Below the pieces are notes generated by a model. The model saw nothing but the letters and a program-made list of their open reading frames with translations. It was not told the DNA's origin and did not search any database. Shown in pieces: positions 1-49,300 of a stretch of 56,970 bases of DNA. How positions within the stretch are numbered: the first letter of the stretch is position 1; every line of letters starts with the position of its first letter. Position numbers and translations under genes: made by a program. Origin of the DNA: a virus (lineage: Duplodnaviria > Caudoviricetes); the IMG/VR virus record IMGVR_UViG_3300049436_000157, positions 1-56,970 of that record. The stretch is one strand, 5' to 3'.

Positions 1-798
1 TCACTCATCTCCACCAGACGCACAACCCGTCGGTGCAGGGGACGCGCCGCAAGCGGCGCTCCCCTGACCTAGTGCGTTGTGCGTCAAAATCCGCCATGCA
101 GCCGCAGCCACTCGCGGAACCTGGGCATTTCCAAGACAGCGCAGTCTGTCCAGCCGGTCGGGAACCCCATCAACCACTCTGCCCACGTTGGGTTCACTCG
201 GCCAGTCGAGGAAGTTTTCAGCCCCTCCACTTCGGCCAACCGGCTTGCCAGTGTGTCCGCCTTGCCCCTGTGTCGGCCGCCGCATTTCCTCCCAATCGAA
301 GCGGTAAGCGTCGGCCAAAATCCAAAGCCTCTTTCTTTCGTGCGGAGCGTCGGCGTTGTCTGCGCCAACAACTCCCCATCGAGCATCAAACCCCAACTCG
401 GCCAGGTCGCCGAGAACTCGGCCCAACCCCCGAGTAGTGAGCGCTGGTGAGTTTTCCACCCACACGAATCGCGGTCGTACTTCGCCAACGATCCGCGCCA
501 TTTCCCGCCATAGGCCGCTTTCAGGCCCGTCAATCCCGGCTCCTGCTCCGGCGACGGAAATGTCCGTGCAGGGGAATCCACCGCTGACAACATGCACACT
601 CCCTGCCCAGGGCTTACCGTCGAAGGTTCGCACATCGTCCCAGATCGGGAAGGCTGGAAGCAGTCCGTCGCGCTGGCGGGCGAACAGCACGCTCCGGGCG
701 TAGGCATCAACTTCAACAGCGCAGACGGTGCGCCATCCAAGGATGGTGCCTCCCAAGATGCCTCCGCCTGCTCCTGCAAAAAGTGCCAACTCATTCAT
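1..798 (-). CDS. C5-cytosine DNA methyltransferase (alpha polypeptide), cassette 1
   Basis: Motif I LFAGAGGG, IV GGFPC, VI ENS, VIII R-x-R, X LGNAQVP. ATG at 798 with AAAGG SD. The C-terminal tail is encoded by attC1. Confidence 0.92.
   Translation of the reverse strand: MNELALFAGAGGGILGGTILGWRTVCAVEVDAYARSVLFARQRDGLLPAFPIWDDVRTFDGKPWAGSVHVVSGGFPCTDISVAGAGAGIDGPESGLWREMARIVGEVRPRFVWVENSPALTTRGLGRVLGDLAELGFDARWGVVGADNADAPHERKRLWILADAYRFDWEEMRRPTQGQGGHTGKPVGRSGGAENFLDWPSEPNVGRVVDGVPDRLDRLRCLGNAQVPRVAAAAWRILTHNALGQGSAACGASPAPTGCASGGDE
20..82 (+). repeat. attC: attC site 1 (63 bp)
   Basis: R'' GCACAAC, 5-nt spacer, L'' GGT[G]CAGG ... L' CCTGACC, 6-nt spacer, R' GTTGTGC; central GCGCCGC-AA-GCGGCGC hairpin. 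Confidence 0.9.
84..794 (-). CDS. Nested alternative-frame beta polypeptide of a two-subunit C5 methyltransferase (M.EcoHK31I-like)
   Basis: 236-aa ORF entirely inside the methyltransferase gene, starting 4 nt after its ATG (ATGAATGAG). Carries motif IX-like RVNPTWAEWLMGFPTGWTD, which the main frame lacks. Confidence 0.75.
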   Translation of the reverse strand: MSWHFLQEQAEASWEAPSLDGAPSALLKLMPTPGACCSPASATDCFQPSRSGTMCEPSTVSPGQGVCMLSAVDSPARTFPSPEQEPGLTGLKAAYGGKWRGSLAKYDRDSCGWKTHQRSLLGGWAEFSATWPSWGLMLDGELLAQTTPTLRTKERGFGFWPTLTASIGRKCGGRHRGKADTLASRLAEVEGLKTSSTGRVNPTWAEWLMGFPTGWTDCAVLEMPRFREWLRLHGGF

Positions 799-819
799 CG
801 TTACCTTTCGTCCGTTGCC

Positions 820-887
820 GCACAACAATTCGTCCAACCGTACCTCGCGCAAAAAGCGCGCGAGGCCGGTTAACTCAATCGTTAGCA
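820..887 (+). repeat. attC: attC site 2 (68 bp)
   Basis: GCACAAC-AATTC-GTCCAACC...GGTTAAC-TCAATC-GTTAGCA; closely resembles the classic 59-base-element pattern AACAATTCGTTCAAGC...GCTTAACTCAAGCGTTAG. Confidence 0.92.
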
Positions 888-1651
888 GGCAAAAGCATGT
901 CGCCCTGCACCGCCGTATCGCCAGCGCCGACTTTTGGTTCAGCGAACATTTGCTCTTGAGCCTGAGCGCCCGTCACCCTCGGCACCGCGATTCCGTGGAA
1001 ATACTCATGCTCGCGCTCAATCCCGATAAATCGCCGCCCCTCCAAGTGCGCCGCCTCGCCAGTGGTTCCGCTTCCCATGAAGCAGTCCAGAACCGTGTCG
1101 CCTGCGTTCGTGGTCAGTCGTATCAGGTGCCGCATCACGTCCACCGGCTTCTCTGCCGCGTGCGCCGTCGTCTTGCTGTTACCGGCCATCCACCGGCAGC
1201 GGTAAATGTCGCTCGCGCTCCGGTTGTCTATCTTGGCGTCTGGCATCCCGGCAAAAAGCACAACCTCGTAAGTCGGGCGCAGTTGGCGCGGCCCTGCTGG
1301 TCCGATCCATTCCTTGTCCCAAATCATCAGCGAGTCCACTTGCCATTTCACCTTAGCAAACGCATAGAGCAGTGTTGGCAGGCTGCGCCAGTTTCCGAAG
1401 ACACAGGCAAACCCATCTTGCTTCAGTGCGCGCCGCGCCAGCTTCAGCCATTCGGCGTACCACCAGGCGCTATTTTCCATGTCAGCCCATCCGCCAGCTT
1501 TCGCGCTTGCGTCGCCGGTCGAGATTGCGCCAATCATGTAGGGCGGGTCGGTTATCACCGCGTCCACGCTCATCGGCGGCAACTCCGCCATCACTTCCAG
1601 GCAGTCGCCTTGCCACAGTTCAGCGTTCCCGATTGTCACTTTCTCAGCCAT
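875..1651 (-). CDS. N4/N6 DNA methyltransferase (beta class), cassette 2
   Basis: GDCLEV, catalytic DPPY N-terminal to H-x-x-EKP and DCFMGSGTT. GGAG SD. Stop codon lies within attC2. Confidence 0.93.
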   Translation of the reverse strand: MAEKVTIGNAELWQGDCLEVMAELPPMSVDAVITDPPYMIGAISTGDASAKAGGWADMENSAWWYAEWLKLARRALKQDGFACVFGNWRSLPTLLYAFAKVKWQVDSLMIWDKEWIGPAGPRQLRPTYEVVLFAGMPDAKIDNRSASDIYRCRWMAGNSKTTAHAAEKPVDVMRHLIRLTTNAGDTVLDCFMGSGTTGEAAHLEGRRFIGIEREHEYFHGIAVPRVTGAQAQEQMFAEPKVGAGDTAVQGDMLLPAND

Positions 1652-1676
1652 CGTCACTCCGTAGTTACCGTTTGCC

Positions 1677-1746
1677 TGCTAACCCATCATTCCAGGGGAC
1701 GCTGCGCGATAAAGCCGCGCATCGCCCCTGAATTCAGGCGTTGTGC
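1677..1746 (+). repeat. attC: attC site 3 (70 bp)
   Basis: TGCTAAC-CCATC-ATT[C]CAGG...CCTGAAT-TCAGGC-GTTGTGC. Confidence 0.92.
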
Positions 1747-2300
1747 GTCTTGCACTTCGCTGCCAGCTCTACCAGCCATTGCGCCAGCTCGGGCGGTGTG
1801 TGCTCTCGTTCGGCCTTTGTGATGTGCGGCCGGTAGTCGTGTCGCTTCCGGCTTTGCACCACATAGGCCGCCTCGCCCATCACGTAGGGCAGCGGCGGTA
1901 TGTCGCCCGGCTCGCACCCCACCACGTAGAACCACGTCGCCTTTTCGGCTTTGTGGCCCCACCACTTCTGCGGCGCGGCCAGTGTCCACCCGCCGTATTG
2001 GTCGCGCTCGCCCGGCATCGGCAGCTTCTGCGCCGGCCAGAGCGTCGAGCCTGCCGGGTGCTCAAGCACGCCGCCAAACTCCCGCACCAGCGCCACCGCA
2101 AGCCGCGCCAGGTTCATCTCGTCGGGTCGTGGCCGTGCGAACGTGCGCAGCCGGCCCCACGCCCTGCAAGGCGGGTGCGCCACTACCGGGCAACCTCCGG
2201 GCCAGCGCCTGGCGTCCCTCTCAGCGTCCCACACGTCCACGCCGGCCAGTGCCTTGTAGTGGCTATCTGCGCGGGCGAAAAGTACTGCAACCGTCATCAC
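1734..2300 (-). CDS. Divergent C5-methyltransferase-like protein, cassette 3
   Basis: VVAHPPC (motif IV-like), VLEHP (VI-like), Q-x-WWGH-x-x-x-KAT (VIII-like), REHTP-x-x-LA (X-like). Canonical FxGxGG is absent. Stop lies within attC3. Confidence 0.6.
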   Translation of the reverse strand: MMTVAVLFARADSHYKALAGVDVWDAERDARRWPGGCPVVAHPPCRAWGRLRTFARPRPDEMNLARLAVALVREFGGVLEHPAGSTLWPAQKLPMPGERDQYGGWTLAAPQKWWGHKAEKATWFYVVGCEPGDIPPLPYVMGEAAYVVQSRKRHDYRPHITKAEREHTPPELAQWLVELAAKCKTHNA

Positions 2301-2770
2301 TCATCTCCACCAGACGCACAACCCGTCGGTGCAGGGGACGCGCCGCAAGCGGCGCTCCCCTGACCTAGTGCGTTGGGCGTCGTCAGCGTGATCCAGCCCC
2401 GTTGCTCTGCGCTGTCGTCGATCCGTCCTTCGTGTCCGATCAGAAGCGCCGCGTCGTTCGCCATGCGCTCTGTGCATTCGTTCTCCACGGCCGGGATGTT
2501 CGGAAGCCAGAAGAACAGCGCATCCTTCAGCCGTTGGTTTTCGGCGCGCAGTTCGTGGTTTGCTTGGTCCTTCTTCGCGTACAGGTCGGCGTCCTTGTTC
2601 GCTTGGGTCAGCGCGTCCCGAAAATCTTCAACAGCGCGGTCGCCGGACTTCACGAGCGCCAGCAGTGCGCCGGCCAAGCTCTCAGCGTCTTCGCGCCGAA
2701 TGAACGATCCATCCTCGCGCTGGTGCATGCTTCCAGGGTATGCGCTGTCGTATGCCTCAATCGTTTTCAC
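2297..2770 (-). CDS. Hypothetical coiled-coil phage protein, cassette 4
   Basis: GTG at 2770 after GGAAGGG. Reads through attC4; its stop overlaps the start of the next gene. Confidence 0.75.
   Translation of the reverse strand: MKTIEAYDSAYPGSMHQREDGSFIRREDAESLAGALLALVKSGDRAVEDFRDALTQANKDADLYAKKDQANHELRAENQRLKDALFFWLPNIPAVENECTERMANDAALLIGHEGRIDDSAEQRGWITLTTPNALGQGSAACGASPAPTGCASGGDE
2316..2378 (+). repeat. attC: attC site 4 (63 bp; same sequence family as attC1 and attC7)
   Basis: GCACAAC-CCGTC-GGT[G]CAGG...CCTGACC-TAGTGC-GTTGGGC. Positions 2297-2375 are identical to 1-79. Confidence 0.9.
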
Positions 2771-2795
2771 GTCGTTTCCCTTCCGGGCGTCCGCC

Positions 2796-2865
2796 GCCCA
2801 ACTCTGCATTCGAGCGGGACTGGCCGCATAAGGCCGCGTCCATCCCCTCAATTTGACTGTTGGGC
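2796..2865 (+). repeat. attC: attC site 5 (70 bp)
   Basis: GCCCAAC-TCTGC-ATT[C]GAGC...CCTCAAT-TTGACT-GTTGGGC. Confidence 0.9.
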
Positions 2866-2869
2866 CTCA

Positions 2870-3097
2870 TTAGTGCGGCATCCTGAATTCGCATGCCGGC
2901 GGGTTTGCCGCAATGTCCGCCAGTGCGCTTTCCAGCCATCCGCGCACGAACTCGTCTCCCTCGGTGGTCCGCAGCAGGTTGTAGCCGGCCAACATCAGCG
3001 CCCCGAGTGCGTCCGACTTCTCGCGCTTCGTTGGCAATTTGTGCATCAGCGCCCCGAGCATGTCGAGCGCCAGCTTGGCAATCTGGTCTTCATTCAT
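2870..3097 (-). CDS. Small hypothetical protein (75 aa), cassette 5
   Basis: GAGGA SD and ATG; helical composition; fills the 325-bp cassette. Confidence 0.8.
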   Translation of the reverse strand: MNEDQIAKLALDMLGALMHKLPTKREKSDALGALMLAGYNLLRTTEGDEFVRGWLESALADIAANPPACEFRMPH

Positions 3098-3125
3098 TTC
3101 GCGTTCCTCTCTTGTTCCGTCTGAG

Positions 3126-3190
3126 GCCCAACAACCGCATCGAGCGGACCGGGCGAAAAGCGGCCCGGCCCCTCATGCGGAGCGTTATAC
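3126..3190 (+). repeat. attC: attC site 6 (65 bp)
   Basis: GCCCAAC-AACCG-CAT[C]GAGC...CCTCATG-CGGAGC-GTTATAC. Confidence 0.9.
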
Positions 3191-3194
3191 GTCT

Positions 3195-3941
3195 TCATGC
3201 CGCTATCACCATTTGCACGGCTTGCGGCTCCCAAAACGTCGTCGCCTGGTGGCTCTCGATCCGCTCACGCATCACCAGCGCCCTGCATTCCTTGCTTGCT
3301 GGCGTGTAGGTGCCGCGCCAGGCCGAATAAATTCCCACGTTCTGCGCGATATTGGTGCTGTCCGCGCTGGCGAACGGCAACCGCGAGAACACATCCGGGT
3401 TCAACATCCGCAGGCCATGCAACTTGCAAACCGGGTTTCCGTTCTTGTCACACACGGCGTTCATGGCTTCGGCGATCCGGTCCCACCATCGTGCATTGCC
3501 AACGGTGGCGTACTGGCCGCTGCTGCCGAGACAGACCCGCTGCCACTCCCGCGCAAGACGCCGTAGCCGATCAATAGATTCGTGCATGTGCCAGACTGGG
3601 GCACCGACCCATCGAGATACCGCATCGACCCAAGGCCATTCAGCCAGCAACTCATCATTGGCTTTCTCATCGCCATCAATCACGTCCGGGATAACTGCAA
3701 AGTCAAAAGACGGGTATCGGTGCAACTCGGCCACCCAAGCGTAATAGCGGCTCCAGTCCGTTACCGGCTCGCCGCTTTTCCACGCCGAGAAAGCGCCGTT
3801 ATCCACCGCGAAGGACTGGCAAACCTCAAGCACAAGTCCCAACTGGTCGGGGTAGCGGAAGGACACAAACGAATGCCCTCCGCTCACTGCGGCGCGAGCT
3901 GCTGTCGCTGGCGTTATCGGTAGGCCGTGGTAGTGGATCAT
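3195..3941 (-). CDS. TGT/DpdA-like (tRNA-guanine transglycosylase-fold) phage protein, cassette 6
   Basis: Start MIHYHG at 3941 (ATGA overlap). Motifs DNGAFS, IPDVI, PVWH, LHGL and SADST resemble TGT-fold DSGxF / HxxG / SxDS motifs. Confidence 0.6.
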   Translation of the reverse strand: MIHYHGLPITPATAARAAVSGGHSFVSFRYPDQLGLVLEVCQSFAVDNGAFSAWKSGEPVTDWSRYYAWVAELHRYPSFDFAVIPDVIDGDEKANDELLAEWPWVDAVSRWVGAPVWHMHESIDRLRRLAREWQRVCLGSSGQYATVGNARWWDRIAEAMNAVCDKNGNPVCKLHGLRMLNPDVFSRLPFASADSTNIAQNVGIYSAWRGTYTPASKECRALVMRERIESHQATTFWEPQAVQMVIAA

Positions 3942-4213
3942 TTGCGCTCCGTGGTCGCAGCCGTATAACCCGTCGGTGCAGGGGACGCGCCGCAAGCGGC
4001 GCTCCCCTGACCTATGGCGTTGGCAGGCAATGGCCGCCATCCCTGCGGCTCGCCATACATGCCGTGCCACGTCCACCCGCCGCCGTTGAAGTCGATCCAT
4101 GTCGCCTCGACAACCTGCTCCCACTGTCGCTTTTCCACGCCCTTTGCGTACTGTCGGTACGGGTGGTGCATCAGCATGTGGATCACCGTTCCATCCTTGG
4201 GTGCCGTTTCCAT
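3938..4213 (-). CDS. DUF551-like phage protein; C-terminus extended through attC7
   Basis: (EWRP)METAPKDG ... P-x-GWRPLP family signature. Start uncertain, because the conserved WRP lies upstream of the only ATG. Confidence 0.7.
   Translation of the reverse strand: METAPKDGTVIHMLMHHPYRQYAKGVEKRQWEQVVEATWIDFNGGGWTWHGMYGEPQGWRPLPANAIGQGSAACGASPAPTGYTAATTERK
3963..4025 (+). repeat. attC: attC site 7 (63 bp)
   Basis: GTATAAC-CCGTC-GGT[G]CAGG...CCTGACC-TATGGC-GTTGGCA. Confidence 0.9.
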
Positions 4214-4265
4214 CGGGCGCCATTCCGTATCGGCTGTTGATTGAGCCTGCTGGAGAAGGGTGTCC

Positions 4266-4607
4266 TTACGCGGTCTTGAGGTTGGCGGTGGTGATGTCGG
4301 TCGTGCTGGGGATGCTCTTCAGGTCGAGCTTGGTCTGGCGCGGATCGTCGGCGACAAGGTGGCCTTCCGGGGTGGCGAACAGCATCGCCTCCATGGGCTC
4401 TTCGGCCGGCTTGGTGAGTTTGACGTTGCCGGTGATGTGCATGGCGCCTCCTCGGGTGGCTTTCTTCACCTTGATTTCGATGACCAGCTTGCCGGCCTTC
4501 CCGCTGCCGTCGACGGCGCTGACCAGTTCGGCCATCTTGTCGCTGGCGGTGTCGATGAAGATCCCGCCGCCGATGTGGCGCAGGGTGTCGGTGATGGGTT
4601 TGCTCAT
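4266..4607 (-). CDS. Hypothetical phage early protein
   Basis: AGGAG SD, start MSKPITDTL, strong GC3 bias. Confidence 0.8.
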   Translation of the reverse strand: MSKPITDTLRHIGGGIFIDTASDKMAELVSAVDGSGKAGKLVIEIKVKKATRGGAMHITGNVKLTKPAEEPMEAMLFATPEGHLVADDPRQTKLDLKSIPSTTDITTANLKTA

Positions 4608-4641
4608 GGCTTCTTCTCCTTCTGGGTGGGTAGTGCTGCCG

Positions 4642-6369
4642 TTAGGCAGCGGCTTGGTAGTGGCTGATCTCGCCCCGTTCCATCCAGAACGCCTGGAAGG
4701 TGTCACCGGGCAGCGTCGGCAGGCCCTTCAGGGTGGCGAAGATCAGGGCCGTGTCGATCTCTCCGGCGGTGGCCAGTCCGTGGAGCCAGCGCAGGAGGGT
4801 GGACCGGTTGCCCATGTCCAGCACATCCATCCGGTCCAGGGCGATCAGGCTCAGGCCGGATACGTGGGCGATGGCCTCGGCCAGGGACGCATCGGCCCGC
4901 CAGCGGGCGGACTCGCTGCACAGGCTGTAGAGCCTGCCGCCGATGCGCACGCTCATGTCGGGATCCACGGCAACCTGTGCCCATCCGGTGGCCGAGGCGG
5001 TAGCGCGCAGCCGGTCGTTGAACGGCTTGATGGCATCTGACAGCAGTTCGCCCGGGATGCCATCCGGAGCCAAGGCGTCGGCGATCTTGAGCCAATCCTT
5101 CAGGTGCTGGTGGTTCTCGGCAGCGGCCCGGGTCTTCTTGTCGGCGGCGGTTGCCTTGCGCTGGGCATCTTCGACGAGACGGATGGCCGCCTGGTGGTTG
5201 GCCGCTTCGTGCTTGAGGTTGGCGATCGAGCTTTCCAGGTCGGCGATCATCTCGGCGGTGACCGTATCCGGCGTGGCCTCGATCTCCTGGAGGGAGGCCG
5301 CGGCGGCCTTGGCTTGCTCCAGGTCGCGCTCTCCGTTGGCCACGGAGCGCACCATGACTTCCAGCGCCCGTTCGTACTCGGGCAGGGCTTCGCGTGCCTC
5401 CGGGTCTGCCTTCTGGGCCGGCGCTTCGTATTCGACCAGAGCGCCGTCGGCGTGCCGGTGCATGAGGATGGATCCGCAGCTCGGGCAGGTGTAGGACGGA
5501 GGGGTTTCGGTGCTTCCGGAGGCCTTCGCCCGGGTGGCTTCCACCTTGGCCTGCCACTCGGCCATGTCGCCCCGGTCCTTCTCAAGCTTGGCGGTGATTC
5601 TGCCGATATTGCCGGCCTGCTCCTGGAGCCCGGCCACCTTGGCGCGACGCTCGTCCTGCTGGCGCTTCATCGCCCGGAGTTCGCCCATACGCTCCGTGTC
5701 GGCGGATATGCGCTCATTCGCGGCAGCCAGGGCCGCCTTGGTTTCGTCCAGGCCGGTGGTGTCGATCGCCGGCTTTTCCGCTTTCCAGGTCTCGGCCTTC
5801 TTTTCGCCGTAGGTCTCGCCGGTGATCTGCTTCCAGGCGCCGCGGCACTCGGTCGCCTTGGTCTTGGCATAGTCATGGGCGGCCGGGAAGCCTGAGACCA
5901 GCAGCGGGGCAACGGCTTCCGCCTTGTCGGCCGAGCAGCCGCGGTCGATCATCTTCTGCCGGATGGCTTTGGGCGCGGCAGAGGATCCGGTCAGGGCAAA
6001 GAGCATGCTGCGGCGCTCGTTGTCCTCGAGGCTGGCGAAGCGCGGCGGATCCAGCACGAATGGCAGGGCGCCGTGGATCGGGTCGCCGCTCATCGTGCGC
6101 TTGCCATCCGGCAGGGTGATGGCCACCTCGCCGGCGGTGTGCTTGATCAGGACCGATGCCGCCTTGGCGCCGTCTCGGACCAGCGCGGGGTAGTCCTTCT
6201 TCAGCTTGACGCGGACCACCTCGCCGGTCATGGCCAGGCGGATGGCCTCCTGCATGCTGGTCTTCCCCTGCTCGTTGCCGCCGGCCACCAGGACGACGGG
6301 CCGGTCGATGGCCAGTCCGATGTCGGTGATGGCCTGGAAGTTCTGGATGTTGATGGCGGTGATCTTCAC
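4642..6369 (-). CDS. Rad50/SbcC-like ABC ATPase
   Basis: IQNFQ, Walker A GGNEQGKTS, coiled coils around a CPSC zinc hook, LCSES signature, Walker B LIALD. Confidence 0.88.
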   Translation of the reverse strand: MKITAINIQNFQAITDIGLAIDRPVVLVAGGNEQGKTSMQEAIRLAMTGEVVRVKLKKDYPALVRDGAKAASVLIKHTAGEVAITLPDGKRTMSGDPIHGALPFVLDPPRFASLEDNERRSMLFALTGSSAAPKAIRQKMIDRGCSADKAEAVAPLLVSGFPAAHDYAKTKATECRGAWKQITGETYGEKKAETWKAEKPAIDTTGLDETKAALAAANERISADTERMGELRAMKRQQDERRAKVAGLQEQAGNIGRITAKLEKDRGDMAEWQAKVEATRAKASGSTETPPSYTCPSCGSILMHRHADGALVEYEAPAQKADPEAREALPEYERALEVMVRSVANGERDLEQAKAAAASLQEIEATPDTVTAEMIADLESSIANLKHEAANHQAAIRLVEDAQRKATAADKKTRAAAENHQHLKDWLKIADALAPDGIPGELLSDAIKPFNDRLRATASATGWAQVAVDPDMSVRIGGRLYSLCSESARWRADASLAEAIAHVSGLSLIALDRMDVLDMGNRSTLLRWLHGLATAGEIDTALIFATLKGLPTLPGDTFQAFWMERGEISHYQAAA

Positions 6370-6611
6370 GCTGCGGCCCTCCTGCTGATGGTCTGGTACT
6401 CGGTGCGGTCGATCATGGTGACGACGTGCCGGCCCGGTGTCGGCGGCTTCTCCTTTGCGTCGGCGTCCCGGTACTGCTGCTGCTGGGAGGCCATGAAGCG
6501 ATCAACATCCCAGGCGCGATGTTGGGTAGCGATGACGGCGCCGGTCTTCGTGTCGGTGACCTTCACGAACACGTCTCGCCCGGTCAGTTCCTGGTTGATG
6601 GAGGCGGCCAT
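6366..6611 (-). CDS. Hypothetical protein
   Basis: Tightly coupled to both neighbours in the recombination operon. Confidence 0.7.
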   Translation of the reverse strand: MAASINQELTGRDVFVKVTDTKTGAVIATQHRAWDVDRFMASQQQQYRDADAKEKPPTPGRHVVTMIDRTEYQTISRRAAA

Positions 6612-6613
6612 GG

Positions 6614-7780
6614 CTATTCCGCCTGGAACATATCGCTGCCACCGGTGCCGGCCGGCTTGGCATTGGCGATGGACACGTTGATCTGACGCTGCTGGTTCTC
6701 CGGCAGGCCGCGGGCGATGTCCCGGGCCATATCGAAGTCGCCGGACTTGACGGCCGACATGGCGTCGTCGAAGGTTGGGGCGCCAGAAGCTGCGCGTACT
6801 GAAGAAACCTCGGCGCTTACCGTCCCTACAGAAACCGTTTCCGCGTCTGCTTCGATGTGGGTGGTCACCGTTTCAACCTCCTGATGCTCCAGCGCAGGAG
6901 GTTCGGCGCCTTCCTCGAACACTTGGCTGATGGTGGCCGGGTCGGCCATGGCGGAAAAATCGACGGCCCGCTCGTCCAGCTGGCTTGCGATGGCGATAGG
7001 GTCGTTTGATGCCAGCGGAAGCCTCGAGTTGATGATCTTCTTGATCACCGTCTTGCTTGCCATGGTGTCCTCGTGCATCACCCATGGCGTGTCGGCGAGT
7101 TTCTGCGCGGCCTTGGCGCGGTCCTTGTCGCTGTCGGCTTGATCGACGGCGCGAACCAGTGAGTTGTAGGTTTCGGACTTGGAGCGCGCCTTGTAGATTT
7201 CGTCGAGCGGCAGGGTCAGGGCTACCTCGTTGCCGTTCTTCATCTTGATGAGGCAGTAGGCGCCGACCAGCGGTCCACGGTCCTTGAGGGCCTTCCTGAA
7301 CCGGACCAGGCCGGTGCTACCCTGCATGTGCTCGAATTCGTCTCGTTCGTGGATCGCCTCGGCCTCGAGGGACGCTACGTTTGGACTGCGGTAGGCCAGG
7401 GTGATGAATCCCTTGTAGCCGATCTGGAATTGGCACTCGGTTCCGATGACGCCCCATTTTCCGTTCGGCAGCTTGCCGCGCTTGTCGTAGGGGATCAGGT
7501 ACGCCTGCCCGGCCGGCGTGTTGGGCTCAAGTCCAAGGGCGGCGGCGGCCATGAACGCACCGAGCACGCTCTGCGGGTCGCACTGGGCGAGCTTCGGGGT
7601 CTTGCGGATCGCATTGACGCAGAGCGCCAGCATGCGGTCTCCGGTCATGTAGCGGCCGGCCATGGCCGTCATCTGCTTCTTGGTCTTCTCGGCGCCGAGC
7701 AATTGCAGGATATTGGCCCGAGGCTGGCTTGCTGCTGGTGTGCCCCCTTCCTTCAGGGTGGCGATGTTGGTCGCGCTCAT
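6614..7780 (-). CDS. recT: RecT-family single-strand annealing protein
   Basis: PKLAQCDPQS...LGLEP...GQAYLIPY...QFQIGYKG...MASKTVIK. Confidence 0.93.
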   Translation of the reverse strand: MSATNIATLKEGGTPAASQPRANILQLLGAEKTKKQMTAMAGRYMTGDRMLALCVNAIRKTPKLAQCDPQSVLGAFMAAAALGLEPNTPAGQAYLIPYDKRGKLPNGKWGVIGTECQFQIGYKGFITLAYRSPNVASLEAEAIHERDEFEHMQGSTGLVRFRKALKDRGPLVGAYCLIKMKNGNEVALTLPLDEIYKARSKSETYNSLVRAVDQADSDKDRAKAAQKLADTPWVMHEDTMASKTVIKKIINSRLPLASNDPIAIASQLDERAVDFSAMADPATISQVFEEGAEPPALEHQEVETVTTHIEADAETVSVGTVSAEVSSVRAASGAPTFDDAMSAVKSGDFDMARDIARGLPENQQRQINVSIANAKPAGTGGSDMFQAE

Positions 7781-7801
7781 GGTCTGGTGGTCTCCAGTGA
7801 A

Positions 7802-8617
7802 TTATTCGTGATAGATACAGGTGTCGAAAACAGGGCAAAACTTCTCCCCGCACATGAAGCTGCGCGGGTTCGGCGGAAACAGTCCGGTGCGGAACATCTC
7901 GGCGGCGAACTGGATCAGGCCCGGCATGGTGTCGGTGCCGACCATGATCCGTTTCGGGTTGATCACCGAGGCGGTGGCCACTTCCAGAGTGCCCTTGGTC
8001 TTGAGGCCGATGATCTCCGCCGGCTCGGTGATGGCCTGGCCGGTGGTGTGCTCGTGCAGAAGCTCATAGGTGCCGAGCTGGGCGCCGTGGCCATCGATCT
8101 TGGCCGCGCCTTTCTGCACCGCCGTGGCGCCGCTTTTCAGGTCGGCGATGCCCAATCCGCTGGTCCCCTGCTTGAGGCGTGAGCGGTCCATCGTGCCGGT
8201 CAGGCGGACGATGACGCCGTTGCCGCAATCAATGTCCATGGGCTTTGTTTCAAGCTCAACCCCGGCGAAGGTGTAGCGCGGGCTGATCTCGGCGCAATAC
8301 TTTGAGTGCAGCGTCAGGCCAATCTTCTCGGCCTCCGGCATGGTCAGATCGTCCAGGTTCATGTCGACCTCGGCGGCCGATTCCTTCAGGGAGTCGACCA
8401 CGGCGCCGGCGGCGTCCGTTGGGGTCAGGCCCTGGCCGTTCATGCGGCTGGTGTCGTAGATGGCCGTGGCCCTGTGGATGGCCGTGCCAAGGGCCATGCG
8501 CAGGCCGATGGGGTTGCGCTTCTTGTCGATGTGGATGGCGTGCCAGCGCATGGCGCAGTCGAATAGCGCGCCCCAGCTGGAGGCGCGGACCGTCATCGAC
8601 GGGGTGATTTCGTTCAT
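7802..8617 (-). CDS. PD-(D/E)XK exonuclease (RecB/Cas4-like)
   Basis: GTAIH, LTGTMD, IADLKSG, QLGTY; one N-terminal plus three C-terminal Cys; adjacent to recT. Confidence 0.85.
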   Translation of the reverse strand: MNEITPSMTVRASSWGALFDCAMRWHAIHIDKKRNPIGLRMALGTAIHRATAIYDTSRMNGQGLTPTDAAGAVVDSLKESAAEVDMNLDDLTMPEAEKIGLTLHSKYCAEISPRYTFAGVELETKPMDIDCGNGVIVRLTGTMDRSRLKQGTSGLGIADLKSGATAVQKGAAKIDGHGAQLGTYELLHEHTTGQAITEPAEIIGLKTKGTLEVATASVINPKRIMVGTDTMPGLIQFAAEMFRTGLFPPNPRSFMCGEKFCPVFDTCIYHE

Positions 8618-8620
8618 TGT

Positions 8621-8827
8621 TCAGTCCTCGTGGTGGTCGTGGTTGACGCCGTGGTTCTTGCAGGCCTTGCAGCGCCTGGCATTACGGTTTTCGTCCTGGG
8701 TCAGGGTCCGGTCGAAGGCGACGCAGTGCGCGGCGCCGAAGATCCGCGCCAGGTGCCCGCAGTGCGCCGGGCAGATTCCGTCGGCCAGGCCCGGGGAGTA
8801 GTTCAGGTGCTCGGCGGTGGTGGTCAT
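8621..8827 (-). CDS. Small Cys-rich protein
   Basis: CPAHC..C..CKAC; ATGA overlap with the upstream gene. Confidence 0.6.
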   Translation of the reverse strand: MTTTAEHLNYSPGLADGICPAHCGHLARIFGAAHCVAFDRTLTQDENRNARRCKACKNHGVNHDHHED

Positions 8828-9108
8828 CGGGTGGCCTCCCATCTCGTCGGGAGCCCGTCAATGCGGCGGACCACTTCGCGCTCAGCCATCCGCCGGCAGA
8901 CATTGGTGATCGTCGACGGGGACATGTCGCCCAGGTCAAAGTAGATGTCGGTGATCGAGGCCTGGCCTATCCGCTTGATGGCCATCAGCACGCGGTCATC
9001 CTTGGCCCGGTCCGACTGGCGGCGCGACTGGATCCGGCGCTGCTTAGCTGTCACTGGAGAAACGAGCGGCTTGCAGCCTCCGATCGCCAGATTCCACATG
9101 GATGTCAT
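8824..9108 (-). CDS. Winged-HTH-like protein
   Basis: VLMAIKRIGQASITDI...SPSTITNVCRRM...V-x-R; ATGA overlaps. Confidence 0.65.
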   Translation of the reverse strand: MTSMWNLAIGGCKPLVSPVTAKQRRIQSRRQSDRAKDDRVLMAIKRIGQASITDIYFDLGDMSPSTITNVCRRMAEREVVRRIDGLPTRWEATR

Positions 9109-13953: not shown

Positions 13954-14004
13954 TGGCCAGCAGCAATGATCGGTGCCCGCCGGGCCTGGACGGAGGATGC
14001 GGCC

Positions 14005-15066
14005 ATTAACTACTACGAACATCACATCAGAGACTACGACACGGCCACCGCCCACCTGACGTGGGAGCAGGATCTGGCCTACCGGCGCCTGATCGCGTGG
14101 TACTACCGCAAGGAGGCACCGATCCCGGGCGACATCAAGGAAGCCTGCCGCCAGGTACGGGCCGTCACAAAGCCCCAGCGCGATGCCGTGGCCACCGTCC
14201 TGGCAGAGTTCTTCGACCTGGCGGACGACGGCTGGCACAACGGAACTTGCGACGAGGTGATCGCAGCATTTCACGCCGGAGAGCCCGAGCGGGAGGCGAA
14301 GAAGCGGAACGAGGACACGCGCCTAGCCAAGCATAGAGCCGAGCGGTCAGAGCTTTTCGGGATCATCAACGCCGCAGGAATCCACCTGCCTTGGAATACC
14401 AAGATGGAGGAGTTGCGGACCGTTGCAGACCGGGTTCGGTACGGGAGACCTGAAACACCTGCAACGGCACCTGAAACAAAAACTGCAACGCCTGCAACGC
14501 AACCTGCAACGGCACCTGCAACGCCTGCAACGGCTACCCAGACACCAATACCCAATACCCAATACCCAGAAGGTAAACCTAACTCCGAACAAACGACGTC
14601 AACGACGATACCCGTGTCAACCGCGCAACCTCCCCCGTCGTCGTCGCCGGGATTCGATTCGAGAGCCGAGTCCGTCTGCGCGGTCTTGCGAAAGCTCGAG
14701 GAGGACAGAGGCAAGCGCTGCACGATCCACGCCAAGCACCCGAAGGTGCTGCGATGGGTAGAGGCCGGGATGACGGACGCAGACCTGCGCCAGGCCTACG
14801 ACCTGGCTGTGGCCCAGCGGCATGAGGACGGCGACCAGACCCCCATCAATGCCGGATTCCTCGACCTGTTCGTCGCCAAGGTCATGAACCCCAAGGACTC
14901 GACGAGCGCGGTTACCGCAGTGGCCAAGGCCTGGCACCAGTCCGCCTCCGGGGTCGCTGCCAAGGCGGCGGAGTTGGGGCTGCCTCCGTACCACCCCGAC
15001 AAGTACCCGGGCGGTCAGCCTGAGTTCAAGACTCGTGTGCTTGCAGCGGCGGGGGTTGCACCGTGA
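14005..15066 (+). CDS. YdaU/DUF1376-family replication initiator (start at ATT 14005 or ATG 13966)
   Basis: NYYEHHIRDYDTATAHLTWEQDLAYRRLIAWYY signature; internal iterons; position after cro and the cII-like gene. Confidence 0.85.
   Translation: MNYYEHHIRDYDTATAHLTWEQDLAYRRLIAWYYRKEAPIPGDIKEACRQVRAVTKPQRDAVATVLAEFFDLADDGWHNGTCDEVIAAFHAGEPEREAKKRNEDTRLAKHRAERSELFGIINAAGIHLPWNTKMEELRTVADRVRYGRPETPATAPETKTATPATQPATAPATPATATQTPIPNTQYPEGKPNSEQTTSTTIPVSTAQPPPSSSPGFDSRAESVCAVLRKLEEDRGKRCTIHAKHPKVLRWVEAGMTDADLRQAYDLAVAQRHEDGDQTPINAGFLDLFVAKVMNPKDSTSAVTAVAKAWHQSASGVAAKAAELGLPPYHPDKYPGGQPEFKTRVLAAAGVAP
14449..14565 (+). repeat. Iteron-like repeats, probable replication origin
   Basis: About 8 copies of (C)CTG(C/A)AAC followed by tandem CCAATAC repeats, inside the initiator gene. 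Confidence 0.75.
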
Positions 15067-46366: not shown

Positions 46367-46392
46367 GCCGCATTCCATAGTGGGGTGCGACG

Positions 46393-49300
46393 ATGGCTCG
46401 ATACGAGATCACTTCTCCCGACGGGCGCCGGTTCGAGGTAACGGCGCCCGACGACGCCGGCCAGGACGATGTTCTGGCCTACGCCCAATCGAATTTCGGC
46501 AGCAAAGATCAGGACGGTGGTGGGCGCTCCGTTCTCGATGTCGTTTCGGCCGGTATCCACGGAATCGTTGACGATGTGCGCGGCGGAATATCCAGGATCG
46601 ACGCCAGGCGGCGCGAGGAATCGATTGCTCGCAGCAATGCGGCCAATCAAGAAATGCTGGCCACCAGCAGAGCATCCGGAACCTCTGCTGAACTCGAGCG
46701 TCAGGCGTTGGCCAAAGACGCGGCAGCCAGGTACCAAAATGATCCGGTGAAGCGCGGAATCGACTTCGGCCGTGATCTTGCATTGAGCAGTGCGCAAGGG
46801 GTAGTCGGACTAGGCGAGGCGGCCGTCGGTATCGGCGATCTGGCCACCGGCTGGACCGGATATACGCCGGGCCAGGCGCTGAAGGATACCGTTGGGTACG
46901 ATCCAGAGCGCACCAAGTCTTCGATCATTGGCGACCTGAAGAGCGATTCCGGCAAGGCCCGGGATGCAATCTACCAGGGCACCAAGGGATTCACCGAGAC
47001 ACTGCTGACCCTGGGCGCCGATCCGGCAATGCTGGCCGACAAGATCACCGAGTCGCTGGCGGGAACGGTTGGGGCTGGCGCCATCGGCGGCAAGGTGGTG
47101 CAGATGGCGCTGCCCAGGGTCACAGCTGCCGCGTCGGCGGCCGGGTTGTCTGGGGCCGAAGCCGAGGCCTTTATTGCCGACCGCCTGGCCAAGATCGCCA
47201 TTGGTGCCTCTGCTGGTGCGGAAGGGGCGCAGCAGGCTGGCAACCTCGCGGAGACAGCGCGCCAAGGGGGGAAGTCTTGGCGTGACTACGCGCTGCCGGC
47301 CATTGCCTCCGGGATTGGCACGGGCGCCATTGCCGCCGGTTCTGGCGCCTTGGCCAAGAAGATCGGTATCGGCGACATCGAATCGGACATTGCCCTGCGC
47401 GGGCAGCGGCCGGGCCTCAAGACTGACCATGGGTTCGCCGTGAATCGTGCCGCCATCGAGGGCATCAAAGAGGGTTCCCTGGAGGAGATGCCGCAGTCCG
47501 TCCAGGAATCGGCCTGGGAGAACGTCGCCATGGGGCGGCCGTGGGACGAGGGGCTGGGCAAGGCTGCGGCCTCTGGCCTGGCAACTGGCGCAGGAATGGG
47601 TGGCGGTCACGCCGCGGTCAGCCGGCCATCGGAGTCAGTACCATCCGAGCCGCTGGCAAATACCGCAGGCGGGGGTAATGCAATCCATGCGGGTGATGTG
47701 CTCGGCTCGCCGGTGGTTGAGGCTTCGCCGGGAGCGGGTAGTGCGCCGGCGGTGGCCGCCGTGCCGACGGAATCCGACAAGGCGCTCTACACGCCCAAGA
47801 GCCTGACGGCCCTCGACAGGGTTCAGGAAATCGACATGCGCCTGGCGGCGCCCGATCTTGCCCAGGGCGAGGCCCAGTCGCTGAGCGCGGAACGGGACGG
47901 AATCACGGCGTCCTGGCCCACGGCAACGCCAGGCGTGCCCACGTCCTTTTCCACGGAGACCGGAGCCCGCATCAACGGCCAGTACGCCCTGATGGAAGCC
48001 GGAGACCTGACCACTTCCCACGACGAGAACCTGCGGCCGGTCGGCACGTACCCGGTGGAGCTTCAGCCCCGCGAGCGGGAACGCCATGCCTCGGAGATGC
48101 AGGTCCAGCAGATCGTCGGCAAACTGGATCCGGCCCGGCTGGGCGAATCGGCAGACGCCGCCACCGGCGCGCCGATCGTTGGTGCCGACGGGCTGGTGGA
48201 ATCCGGAAACGCCCGGACCATTGCCCTGAAGCGCGTCTACCAGGCCAACGGCCAGAAGGCGCTCGACTACCGGCAGTTCCTGAAGGACAACGCCGGGCGC
48301 TTCGGTATCACACCAGAATCCGTCGATGCCCTGCAGAAGCCTGTGCTGGTGCGGGTGCGCAGCACCCCGGTGAATCGGGCCGAGTTCGCGCGCCAGGCCA
48401 ACGCCTCGACCGTGGCGCGCATGAGCCCGTCCGAGCAGGCGAGGTCCGACGCCGCGGCGATCGACAGCCTGGACGACCTGAACCCGGACGACGCGGGAGA
48501 TTTCACGTCCGGAAGCTCGCGGCCGTTTATCCGCCGCTTCCTGGCCAAGTTGCCAGGCACCGAGCAGGCCGGCATGATCGACGCCGGCGGGCAACTCTCC
48601 CAGGCCGGCTATGCGCGGATCCGCAATGCGGTGCTGGCCAAGGCCTACGGCGACTCGCCAGTGCTGCTGCGCATGGTGGAAAGCCTCGACAACAACCTGC
48701 GCAACGTCACGGCCGGCCTGATGCGCGTGGCTCCCCAGGTGGCCAAGGCCCGCGAGGCCATCGCCGATGGCGCCCTGTTCGATGCCGACATCACCCAGGA
48801 TCTGATGGCCGCCGTCGAGGAGCTGGCGACCTTGCGCGACAAGGGCACCTCGGTGGCCGACTACCTGGCGCAGTCCAGCATGTTCGGCGACAGCCTGTCG
48901 CCGGAGGGCCGCGAGCTTCTGATGTTCCTCGCGGACAATATCCGCAGTCCCCGGCGCATCGCCGAATTCATCCAAGCATACCTTGAAGCCCTGACGGCCG
49001 CCGGCAACCCGGCCCAGGGCTCCGTGTTCGGCGAGCAGCAGGCGCCGGCCAAGGCCGATCTCATGGCTGCCGCTGCAAGGAGTCAAGGCGATGCCAAGCA
49101 ACCAGGATCCACTGATGCCGGTCAAGTTGCCGGGAACCAAGGCGCTATTGGACAAGGTGAAGGCCAGCCCGCGAATCAGGCAGGCGATCCGCGCGGCGCT
49201 CAAGGCGATGCGGGCGCCAGCGAATGGGTAGCCTTCCCGCCTGAGAGCGGCACGCTCGGCATCCCCCGGGCGGACATGCCACAGATCAAGGGCGAGCACC

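What the first reader, a model, noticed from the sequence alone, without database searches (positions are those of the whole stretch)
1..4213. All cassette genes are antisense to the canonical attC polarity and lie in the PL operon
Seen: the extra L'' base fixes attC polarity on the + strand, yet all genes are on the - strand, co-directional with the PL operon. Each SD and start codon sits just inside R''. Established: integron cassette ORFs normally read toward their own attC from Pc. Inference: these cassettes are formatted for phage expression and would be silent, antisense passengers in a host integron, so host arrays could act as a hidden reservoir. The recombinogenic bottom strand would be the lagging-strand template for a fork moving left from the origin at about 14.5 kb, an orientation that favours attC folding.
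Basis: partly seen in the sequence, partly recalled or inferred. Interest (0 to 1): 0.8.

Follow-up and report, generated by a model that had tools for sequence, protein, structure and literature searches.

The report
Backwards-wired integron in a prophage
The left end of this prophage holds a real integron cassette array whose genes, mostly DNA-modifying enzymes, all read against the normal cassette direction, and dozens of other phage contigs that carry their own integron integrase share this layout.

Summary
A covariance model built from nine class 1 integron attC sites, oriented on the sense strand of the resistance genes, finds seven sites in the 57 kb window. All seven lie on the + strand at 20-4025 (19.5-38.3 bits); the - strand scores at most 9.1 bits there. 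The real genes are on the - strand: C5 and N6/N4 DNA methyltransferases, a DpdA/TGT-like protein and phrog_12600. They run the same way as the leftward RecT/exonuclease genes.

This is not a one-off. Fifty-nine viral contigs encode an IntI1-like integrase. 69 of 71 attC hits lie upstream of intI and point away from it. The cassette ORFs nevertheless read towards intI: 42 PHROG families on that strand against 0 on the attC top strand. Fourteen bacterial chromosomal integrons with related IntI are canonical: 22 Pfam families against 2, both transposases. 38 viral IntI plus one MAG IntI form a clade.

So "formatted for phage expression" is supported. The "hidden host reservoir" idea is not. I found no description of this layout in five literature searches.

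The parts
20..82 (+). attC E1 (R'' GCACAAC, R' GTTGTGC). Near-identical copy of E4 and E7. Translated in frame as the C-terminal tail of gene A.
   Evidence: R1 38.3 bits on +; repeat family D1; fold
820..887 (+). attC E2 (R'' GCACAAC, R' GTTAGCA). Arms resemble those of aadA-type attCs. The stop of gene B is the TGA formed by TCA in the right spacer.
   Evidence: R1 29.5 bits on +; compared with aadA1 attC
1677..1746 (+). attC E3 (R'' TGCTAAC, R' GTTGTGC). Extra C and A on the top strand, 6 bp apart (G and T on the bottom strand, the canonical pair).
   Evidence: R1 37.7 bits on +; Nivina 2016 passages
2316..2378 (+). attC E4 (E1 type, R' GTTGGGC). Translated as the tail of gene D.
   Evidence: R1 35.2 bits on +
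2796..2865 (+). attC E5 (R'' GCCCAAC, R' GTTGGGC)
   Evidence: R1 30.8 bits on +, 9.1 bits on -
3126..3190 (+). attC E6 (R'' GCCCAAC, R' GTTATAC). Arms resemble the aacA4 attC.
   Evidence: R1 19.5 bits on +, E 0.01
3963..4025 (+). attC E7 (E1 type, R'' GTATAAC, R' GTTGGCA). Distal end of the array. Translated as the tail of backbone gene G.
   Evidence: R1 29.2 bits on +
1..798 (-). Cassette gene A: C5 cytosine DNA methyltransferase. Reads through E1 and stops at 3..1.
   Evidence: PF00145 1.6e-24; phrog_363 3.4e-56 over residues 1-238 of 265
875..1651 (-). Cassette gene B: N6/N4 DNA methyltransferase
   Evidence: PF01555 6.2e-39; phrog_67 1.3e-61
1734..2297 (-). Cassette gene C: phrog_12600, function unknown. 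Widespread in viral contigs.
   Evidence: phrog_12600 3.3e-70; 116 relatives confirmed, the best 80 loci kept
2297..2771 (-). Cassette gene D, unknown function. Start uncertain: GTG 2771 with an SD, or upstream to 2851. Reads through E4. Its TGA overlaps the ATG of C.
   Evidence: ORF list; one weak PHROG hit, 1.8e-4
2870..3097 (-). Cassette gene E, 75 aa, unknown function
   Evidence: ORF; no family
3195..3941 (-). Cassette gene F: DpdA / queuine tRNA-ribosyltransferase-like
   Evidence: phrog_887 2.2e-75
3938..4213 (-). Gene G: backbone gene next to the array, no attC on its 5' side. Reads through E7. ATGA overlap with F.
4266..8617 (-). Leftward early genes: phrog_204, SbcC-like ATPase, RecT-like, exonuclease
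13966..15066 (+). Replication/primosomal protein gene. Iteron-like repeats at 14450-14548 are a likely origin.

Best explanation
Positions 1-4025 are the distal part of an integron cassette array carried by a lambda-like temperate phage. The seven attC sites are genuine and have canonical polarity: top strand = + strand, pointing away from where intI lies in relatives. Each cassette gene, however, is encoded on the attC bottom strand, with its ribosome-binding site and start codon next to R''. The mobile unit is TTRRRY, then the antisense gene, its 5' UTR, R'' and the rest of the attC up to G. The genes are packed head to tail and partly coupled in translation. They run the same way as the leftward early recombination genes and, in relatives, as intI and the phage integrase. 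I infer that they are transcribed as the tail of the early-left operon, towards attI and intI, and not from a Pc promoter. The cargo is DNA modification (C5 and N6/N4 methyltransferases, a DpdA-like enzyme), which probably protects phage DNA from host restriction. Shown: the sites, their polarity, the coding strand, the generality across viral contigs, and the contrast with chromosomal integrons. Inferred: an intI just left of the window, transcription from the early-left promoter, present-day cassette mobility, and the anti-restriction role.
For: Polarity: (7 of 7 on +). Model controls: of 5 attCs left out of the model, blaCARB-2 and blaIMP-4 were found on the gene-sense strand and dfrA1, dfrA15 and catB11 were missed. 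Two hits in a Kovacikia plasmid integron lie on the strand of its cassette genes. Wrong-strand scores at training sites were at most 16.9 bits against 72-76. Extra-base rule. Coding strand. Cassette unit: L010 and L008/L009/L011 share the left gene plus attC and diverge just after the GTT of R'. E1 and E4 are identical from at least 19 nt left of R'' up to GTTG in R'. Gene C in the window and in L060 (87% aa identity) keeps a related attC on its 5' side, while the attCs on its 3' side are unrelated; homology starts at the TT of R'. Link to intI: MAG G002 has a true intI (457 bits, cut-off 265), 55% identical to IntI1. Its two attCs point away from intI and the ORFs read towards it. Viral contigs: 59 loci; 69 of 71 attC hits upstream of intI on the opposite strand; 42 against 0 PHROG families for 64+64 ORFs; 79 of 79 attC hits antisense to gene C in 80 loci. 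Relative L060 reads p204 (72%), C (87%), three attCs, intI. L042 reads CII-like gene, early genes, cassettes, intI, a second integrase, tail genes. Chromosomal controls: 57 of 57 attCs canonical relative to intI, 22 against 2 Pfam families. Clade: 38 viral IntI plus G002, support 100/97.
Against: The window holds no intI and no other tyrosine recombinase, so as given it is formally a CALIN. The left flank could not be recovered: two metagenome scans found nothing. No promoter was identified, and a strong terminator-like hairpin (11709-11685, -) followed by a promoter-like site (11623-11594, -) lies between the divergent region and the array. Transcription from 'PL' proper is therefore unproven, and cassette-internal promoters are not excluded. 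Strand of expression was not measured: RNA-library contigs match genes B, C and F exactly, but contigs carry no strand and may derive from DNA. The viral loci were fetched with peptides of one IntI, and the chromosomal set is 14 arrays from relatives of one MAG, so the contrast rests on biased samples and on different libraries (PHROGs against Pfam). The model missed 3 of 5 held-out class 1 attCs, so arrays are under-called.
Confidence: 0.72

Rival explanations
1. The array is a host chromosomal integron or CALIN that merely abuts the prophage and was swept in by the provirus caller. It is not phage DNA.
For: The window has no intI. The record is a trimmed provirus that starts inside the array. 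Cassette genes have lower GC3 than the phage core. Integrons are common in the bacterial group of MAG G002: 33 of 61 genomes.
Against: The array is joined without a gap to the early-left genes through gene G, which is fused in frame to the last attC. Relatives on viral contigs have the same order, with phage early genes on one side and intI, phage integrase and tail genes on the other. Host arrays of related IntI are canonical in gene orientation, unlike this one. The cargo matches phage families.
Confidence: 0.12
2. Polarity is mis-assigned: the - strand is the true top strand and these are ordinary cassettes, each gene followed by its own attC.
For: The R''/R' complementarity rule is symmetric. 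Under this reading 4 of 7 genes (B, C, E, F) lie wholly inside their cassette, against 2 of 7 under the + reading. Genes end in or just before the neighbouring site, as canonical cassette genes often do.
Against: The model scores 19.5-38.3 bits on + and at most 9.1 on -. The extra bases sit on the AAC arm of the + strand in 7 of 7 sites (rule). In relatives the same polarity points away from intI, as in every canonical integron examined here. Flank comparisons place the crossover at the right box.
Confidence: 0.04
3. The array is real and phage-borne, but it is a fossil. The cassettes are no longer mobile, and each is expressed from its own or local promoters rather than from the early-left operon.
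For: No intI in the window. The last attC in relative L060 has a degenerate R' (ATTGAGT). A terminator-like site lies upstream of the region.
Against: 6 of 6 neighbouring R'/R'' pairs are perfect. Cassette content differs among close relatives with break points at R'. intI reading frames are intact in most viral loci: 51 of the 59 gave stop-free matches of at least 280 residues. Stop/start overlaps (TGATG, ATGA) leave no room for promoters between several genes. No promoter-like site was found on the - strand within 1-4213.
Confidence: 0.12

Closest known systems
Class 1 and other soil/freshwater-type integrons (IntI1; attC = 59-base elements)
   Same: The attC architecture matches closely enough for a class 1 model to find all seven sites. 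The IntI of the relatives is 55% identical to IntI1. The array lies on the 5' side of intI, with the attC top strand pointing away from it.
   Different: Cassette genes lie on the attC bottom strand and read towards attI/intI, so a Pc promoter could not express them. The host is a temperate phage. The cargo is DNA modification rather than resistance.
Integron parts and CALINs in phage genomes (Qi et al. 2023, PMC9892861; outline, section 3.4 and passages read)
   Same: attC clusters in phages, several carrying DNA methyltransferase cassettes. Phage attCs were shown to recombine with attI1.
   Different: That paper reports 21 phages, largely captured pieces of host integrons or short CALINs, and calls the co-oriented arrays typical. 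In the parts I read it does not describe genes antisense to attC polarity or a phage-specific IntI clade.
Treponema-type 'inverted integrase' integrons (PMC3607928, passages read)
   Same: intI and the cassette genes point the same way.
   Different: There intI is transcribed towards attI and the cassettes lie downstream of it. Here intI is transcribed away from attI, as in canonical integrons, and it is the cassette genes that are turned round to read towards attI.
Single reverse-oriented cassettes with their own promoters, such as toxin-antitoxin cassettes
   Same: The gene is antisense to the array. One example turned up here: a Phd/YoeB cassette in a class 1 array (L027).
   Different: Those are isolated exceptions that carry their own promoters (Richard et al. 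2024, passage). Here every cassette of the array is reversed and the genes are packed as an operon.

Membership tests
Integron attC recombination site | Imperfect inverted repeat with R'' RYYYAAC and R' GTTRRRY boxes, L''/L' boxes and an unpaired central spacer | tested here: met
   7 of 7 sites; read; R1 hits at E 1.5e-7 to 0.01; fold z-scores -1.8 to -4.8
Integron attC recombination site | Extrahelical bases on one arm only: on the AAC arm of the top strand, opposite the AAC of the bottom strand | tested here: met
   Extra bases on the 5' (AAC) arm of the + strand in 7 of 7. First base C in 4 sites and G in 3; G also occurs in the cmlA6 attC.
Integron attC recombination site | In an array, R' of one site matches R'' of the next (crossover at G|TT) | tested here: met
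   6 of 6 neighbouring pairs complementary at 7 of 7 positions
Integron attC recombination site | Recombined by an integron integrase as a folded bottom strand | not testable with these tools
   Needs an attC x attI assay
Complete integron (intI + attI + cassettes) | Integron integrase gene next to the array | tested here: not met
   No TIGR02249 or other tyrosine-recombinase match in the window. The record is cut inside the array. Met in relatives L060, L042 and L025.
Complete integron (intI + attI + cassettes) | Cassette genes on the attC top strand, expressed from Pc | tested here: not met
   Genes on the bottom strand. The same holds in viral relatives.
CALIN (cluster of attC sites lacking an integrase) | Two or more attC sites with no intI nearby (definition recalled from Cury et al. 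2016, not read here) | tested here: inconclusive
   Formally met within the record, but the left flank is missing, so the absence of intI cannot be asserted.
Treponema-type inverted-integrase integron | intI transcribed towards attI, cassettes downstream of intI | tested here: not met
   In relatives the array lies on the 5' side of intI (69 of 71 hits). Definition taken from PMC3607928.

The most novel reading that the evidence does not exclude
A clade of temperate phages carries its own integron wired backwards. A phage-specific IntI lineage sits at the end of the early-left operon, before the phage integrase. Cassettes are captured at attI with normal attC polarity, but they encode their genes on the bottom strand, so the phage's own early transcription expresses them towards intI. 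Cassette genes cross the recombination point in a fixed frame (AAC read as Asn) and borrow their stop codon from the neighbouring attC. This would be a dedicated, exchangeable anti-restriction toolkit for phages, with a cassette pool separate from that of bacterial integrons.
Probability: 0.55. Interest if true: 0.88.

Novelty: new variant of a known kind. Interest (0 to 1): 0.8.

Why it matters
Integrons are taught as bacterial gene-capture devices in which cassette polarity guarantees expression from Pc. This array keeps the recombination geometry but turns every gene round, and the host is a temperate phage. If it is active, phages have their own cassette exchange system for DNA-modification genes, the counterpart of the anti-phage defence cassettes recently reported in bacterial integrons (titles and abstracts seen). 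It would also show that cassettes can be made in either gene orientation, which bears on the open question of how cassettes arise. Tools that assume genes follow attC polarity would mis-annotate these arrays. The system can be tested directly with standard recombination and induction assays.

Tried and rejected
Rfam has no hit in the window at gathering thresholds, so I built my own attC model.

No near match of 1-4300 was found in the phage collection. A blastn of E2 against plasmids gave only chance hits.

A codon-usage classifier for the coding strand was dropped. It called 5 of 6 window cassettes correctly but failed on gene A and on low-GC control cassettes. I used family searches instead.

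Comparing the attCs on the 5' and 3' sides of gene C across many loci was not decisive, because both sets are diverse. Only close pairs were informative.

Two metagenome scans for the missing left flank found nothing.

Laying Logan contigs of three DNA runs and one RNA run:
- The contigs break at the attCs.
- The three listed joints (45>910, 936>1626, 936>1681) have short sides of 25-56 letters, do not sit at attC boundaries and probably come from repeats. I draw nothing from them.
- Parts without RNA cover say nothing.
- RNA-library contigs matching B, C and F with no differences are only a weak hint of expression, and they carry no strand.
- Runs with small shares (X12-X24) were not used for habitat.

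The 'hidden reservoir' idea was tested on 14 host arrays, where the antisense ORFs matched only transposase families. That is a small sample.

The library lacks most subscription journals, and supplements were closed.

Full report
WHAT THE RECORD IS. The window is a whole IMG/VR provirus record of 56,970 bp. It starts exactly at the stop codon of the first gene (TCA at 1-3). It ends inside an open frame of more than 3,500 codons. Both ends are therefore cuts and not biological ends.

Genes run leftward up to about 13.9 kb and rightward after that. The leftward set holds an exonuclease (7805-8617), a RecT-like protein (6617-7780), an SbcC-like ATPase (4645-6369) and phrog_204. The rightward set starts with a replication/primosomal protein (13966-15063) and the small terminase. 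The AT skew changes sign at about 14 kb. This is a lambda-like layout.

THE SITES. Reading 1-4500 and the repeat search show seven imperfect palindromes. Each has the form RYYYAAC, 5 nt, 3 bp, one extra base, 6-7 bp, a second extra base, stem-loop, 3 bp, 6 nt, GTTRRRY. Three of them (E1, E4, E7) are near-identical. The right box of each site is the exact complement of the left box of the next site in 6 of 6 pairs. Boxes within one site often do not match (E2, E3, E6, E7). That pattern is what G|TT crossovers between cassettes leave behind. I worked through both orientations and found the rule symmetric, so it says nothing about polarity.

POLARITY. Rfam has no attC family hit, so I built a reference.

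- Source of the reference sites. Using the IntI of a MAG found later as a protein query, I located class 1 integrons on plasmids and fetched annotated arrays. I cut out the attC sites that follow known resistance genes, in the sense orientation of those genes.
- The model. Nine of these sites were aligned (A1) and turned into covariance model R1 with a hand-set structure.
- Result on the window. With filters off, R1 gives seven hits at E<=0.01, all on the + strand, at 19.5-38.3 bits. The next hit anywhere scores 14.4 bits, and the - strand reaches 9.1 bits at one site only.
- Controls. Of five class 1 attCs left out of the model, two (blaCARB-2, blaIMP-4) were found on the correct strand and three (dfrA1, dfrA15, catB11) were missed. 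Two hits in a Kovacikia plasmid integron lie on the strand of its cassette genes. Training sites score 72-76 bits on the right strand and at most 16.9 on the wrong one.
- Extra-base rule. Nivina et al. 2016 state that the extrahelical bases lie on the same arm as AAC in the top strand and opposite it in the bottom strand, and that bottom strands fold about 2.1 kcal/mol better (passages). Here the + strand carries the extra bases on the AAC arm in 7 of 7 sites. The - strand fold is the more stable in 6 of 7, by a mean of 2.1 kcal/mol.
- Identity of the first extra base. It is C in four sites and G in the three E1-type sites. G also occurs in the cmlA6 attC, so this is within the normal range.

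The + strand is the top strand.

THE GENES. On the - strand:
- Gene A matches C5 DNA methylase (PF00145 1.6e-24; phrog_363 3.4e-56).
- Gene B matches N6_N4_Mtase (6.2e-39).
- Gene C matches phrog_12600 (3.3e-70).
- Gene F matches phrog_887, queuine tRNA-ribosyltransferase/DpdA-like (2.2e-75).
- D, E and G have no convincing match.

The three longest + strand ORFs have no match. Start codons lie 19-29 nt from R'' with an SD-like motif between them in 6 of 6 cassettes. Gene G has no attC on its 5' side, so it is backbone, and E7 is the distal end of the array.

WHICH attC TRAVELS WITH WHICH GENE. Three comparisons place the crossover at the right box, so each gene travels with the attC at its 5' end.

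- The E1-type core occurs in six other viral loci and three MAG contigs. L010 shares the left gene and the whole attC with L008, L009 and L011, then diverges straight after the GTT of R'.
- E1 and E4 are identical from at least 19 nt left of R'' up to GTTG of R', and differ after that.
- Gene C is 87% identical in L060. There, as in the window, the attC on its 5' side begins GCACAACCCGTC and has a related left arm. The attCs on its 3' side are unrelated, and homology starts at the TT of R'.

A LINK TO intI. MAG G002, which holds one E1-type site, has a true integron integrase (457 bits, cut-off 265) that is 55% identical to IntI1. Its two attCs point away from intI, as in any integron. The ORFs, however, start next to R'' and read towards intI, across a GTTCGGC box about 60 nt from the intI start. 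The flank holds a spanin-like gene and an HNH endonuclease.

GENERALITY.
- Searching viral contigs with this IntI gave 59 loci at 45-90% identity.
- R1 found 71 attCs at E<=0.01 in 31 of them. 69 lie upstream of intI on the opposite strand, one lies downstream on that same strand (L038), and one lies downstream on the intI strand (L093).
- From 65 distinct inter-attC segments I took the longest open frame on each strand, which gave 64 of at least 60 aa per strand.
- The frames that run the same way as intI matched 42 PHROG families at 1e-5. These include PAPS reductase, many DNA methyltransferases, Mom-like proteins, a DHH phosphoesterase, phrog_12600 and phrog_887. The frames on the attC top strand matched none.
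- In five cassettes from the E1-core loci, 3 of 5 bottom-strand and 0 of 5 top-strand frames had hits.
- Around 80 homologues of gene C, all 79 of 79 attC hits lie on the strand opposite the gene.

CONTRAST WITH BACTERIA. 33 of 61 relatives of G002 have an intI above the cut-off. I fetched 20 array-side stretches and searched 14 of them; the other six were short or pushed the call over the size limit. All 57 attC hits have canonical polarity relative to intI. For 56 segments, the top-strand frames matched 22 Pfam families typical of cassettes, such as glyoxalase, GNAT, HigB and PIN. The 51 antisense frames matched two families, both DDE transposases. These arrays are therefore ordinary, and they hold no hidden phage-format cassettes that Pfam can see.

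TREE. A tree of 74 IntI rows (51 viral, 20 chromosomal, plus IntI1, Kovacikia and G002) has a clade of 38 viral rows plus G002 with support 100/97 and no chromosomal row inside it. L060 belongs to this clade. Both samples are biased by how they were fetched.

ARCHITECTURE IN RELATIVES.
- L060 reads p204 homologue (72%), membrane gene, last attC with a degenerate R', gene C, attC, cassette, attC, cassette, a GTTGGGC box, intI.
- L042 reads CII-like regulator (divergent), early genes, cassettes, intI, a second tyrosine integrase, and convergent tail genes.
- L063 has intI, a ParB/methyltransferase-like gene and an integrase.

The integron thus sits where lambda has xis-int, at the far end of the early-left operon. 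For the window this predicts intI and int just beyond position 1. I could not check that.

EXPRESSION (INFERRED). Genes D/C and G/F overlap stop with start (TGATG, ATGA). No promoter-like site lies on the - strand within 1-4213. Read-through from the early-left promoter is the simplest reading. Against it stand a terminator-like hairpin at 11709-11685 and a promoter-like site at 11623-11594. An RNA library holds exact contigs for parts of B, C and F, but without strand information and possibly derived from DNA.

A FRAME RULE. Genes A, B, C, D and G all read the AAC of the box as an Asn codon. B and C then stop at AAC-NNN-TGA, where the TGA is the TCA of the right spacer; TCA is also present in 6 of the 9 class 1 sites. 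A, D and G read through the whole E1-type attC to a stop at the next gene's start.

Across 95 cassettes from the window and the loci:
- 45 of the longest bottom-strand frames reach the box.
- 32 of those 45 read AAC in frame: 14 stop at the spacer TGA and 18 read further.
- 8 stop at TAA formed from the TTA of the box.
- 5 use another frame.
- 18 more stop 1-5 nt before the box.
- The remaining 32 frames end more than 100 nt away and probably are not the last gene of their cassette.

Many cassette genes therefore lack a stop codon of their own and borrow one from the neighbouring attC.

REPLICATION CLAIM. Five iteron-like repeats at 14450-14548 lie inside the replication gene. For a fork moving left from there, the lagging-strand template is the strand that runs 5'-3' leftward. 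That is the - strand, the attC bottom strand. Richard et al. 2024 say this orientation favours folding and excision (passage). The geometry is right. Whether it matters in a prophage, which the host fork replicates, or during rolling-circle replication is unknown.

COMPARISON WITH THE LITERATURE.
- Qi et al. 2023 report integron parts in 21 phages, including methyltransferase cassettes and recombination-proficient attCs.
- Treponema integrons have intI turned towards attI, which is a different topology.
- Reverse toxin-antitoxin cassettes with their own promoters are known, and one appeared in L027.
- Searches found no account of whole arrays with reversed genes or of a phage IntI clade. The library is incomplete and supplements were closed.

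VERDICT. The expression-format idea is supported by comparison. The reservoir idea is not. The mechanism of expression and present-day mobility remain inferences.

Noticed in passing
window 46381-56970 (+): One open frame of more than 3,500 codons runs off the right end of the record, downstream of the tail genes. It may be a giant tail-fibre or adhesin-like gene, or host DNA.
   Followed up: no
window 14450-14548: Five iteron-like direct repeats (CTGCAACG-type, spaced 12 and 21 nt) inside the replication-protein gene. A likely origin, as in the lambda O gene.
   Followed up: partly
window 1671-1837 (attC E3): In three DNA runs and one RNA library the summed contig depth over the E3 core is 100-725, against about 2-10 beside it, with many different loose ends on both sides. 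This attC type seems to sit in many different cassettes of the same communities.
   Followed up: no
window and 95 cassettes of related loci: Bottom-strand cassette genes cross the recombination box in a fixed frame: AAC read as Asn in 32 of 45 that reach it. They often end at a TGA formed by the TCA of the neighbouring attC's right spacer.
   Followed up: partly
window 11709-11685 (-) and 11623-11594 (-): A strong terminator-like hairpin with a T run, followed by a promoter-like site, inside the leftward gene block. It may split the 'PL operon' or mark an antitermination point.
   Followed up: no
L013 (MAG contig), about 2290-2210 as printed: The 3' part of a tRNA gene (T arm and acceptor end) lies between phage lysis genes and an attC array with no integrase between them. 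It may be a phage attachment site.
   Followed up: no
L027 4746-5248: In a class 1 array on an Aeromonas plasmid, a Phd/YoeB toxin-antitoxin cassette lies opposite to the other cassette genes while its attC keeps the array's polarity.
   Followed up: no
L042 9165-10364; L063 11953-13194: Phage contigs with intI also encode a second, ordinary tyrosine integrase a short way downstream on the same strand.
   Followed up: partly
window 1-3000 against 4000-9000: Cassette genes have lower third-position GC (about 0.62-0.82) than the neighbouring early genes (0.81-0.87), which fits foreign origin.
   Followed up: no
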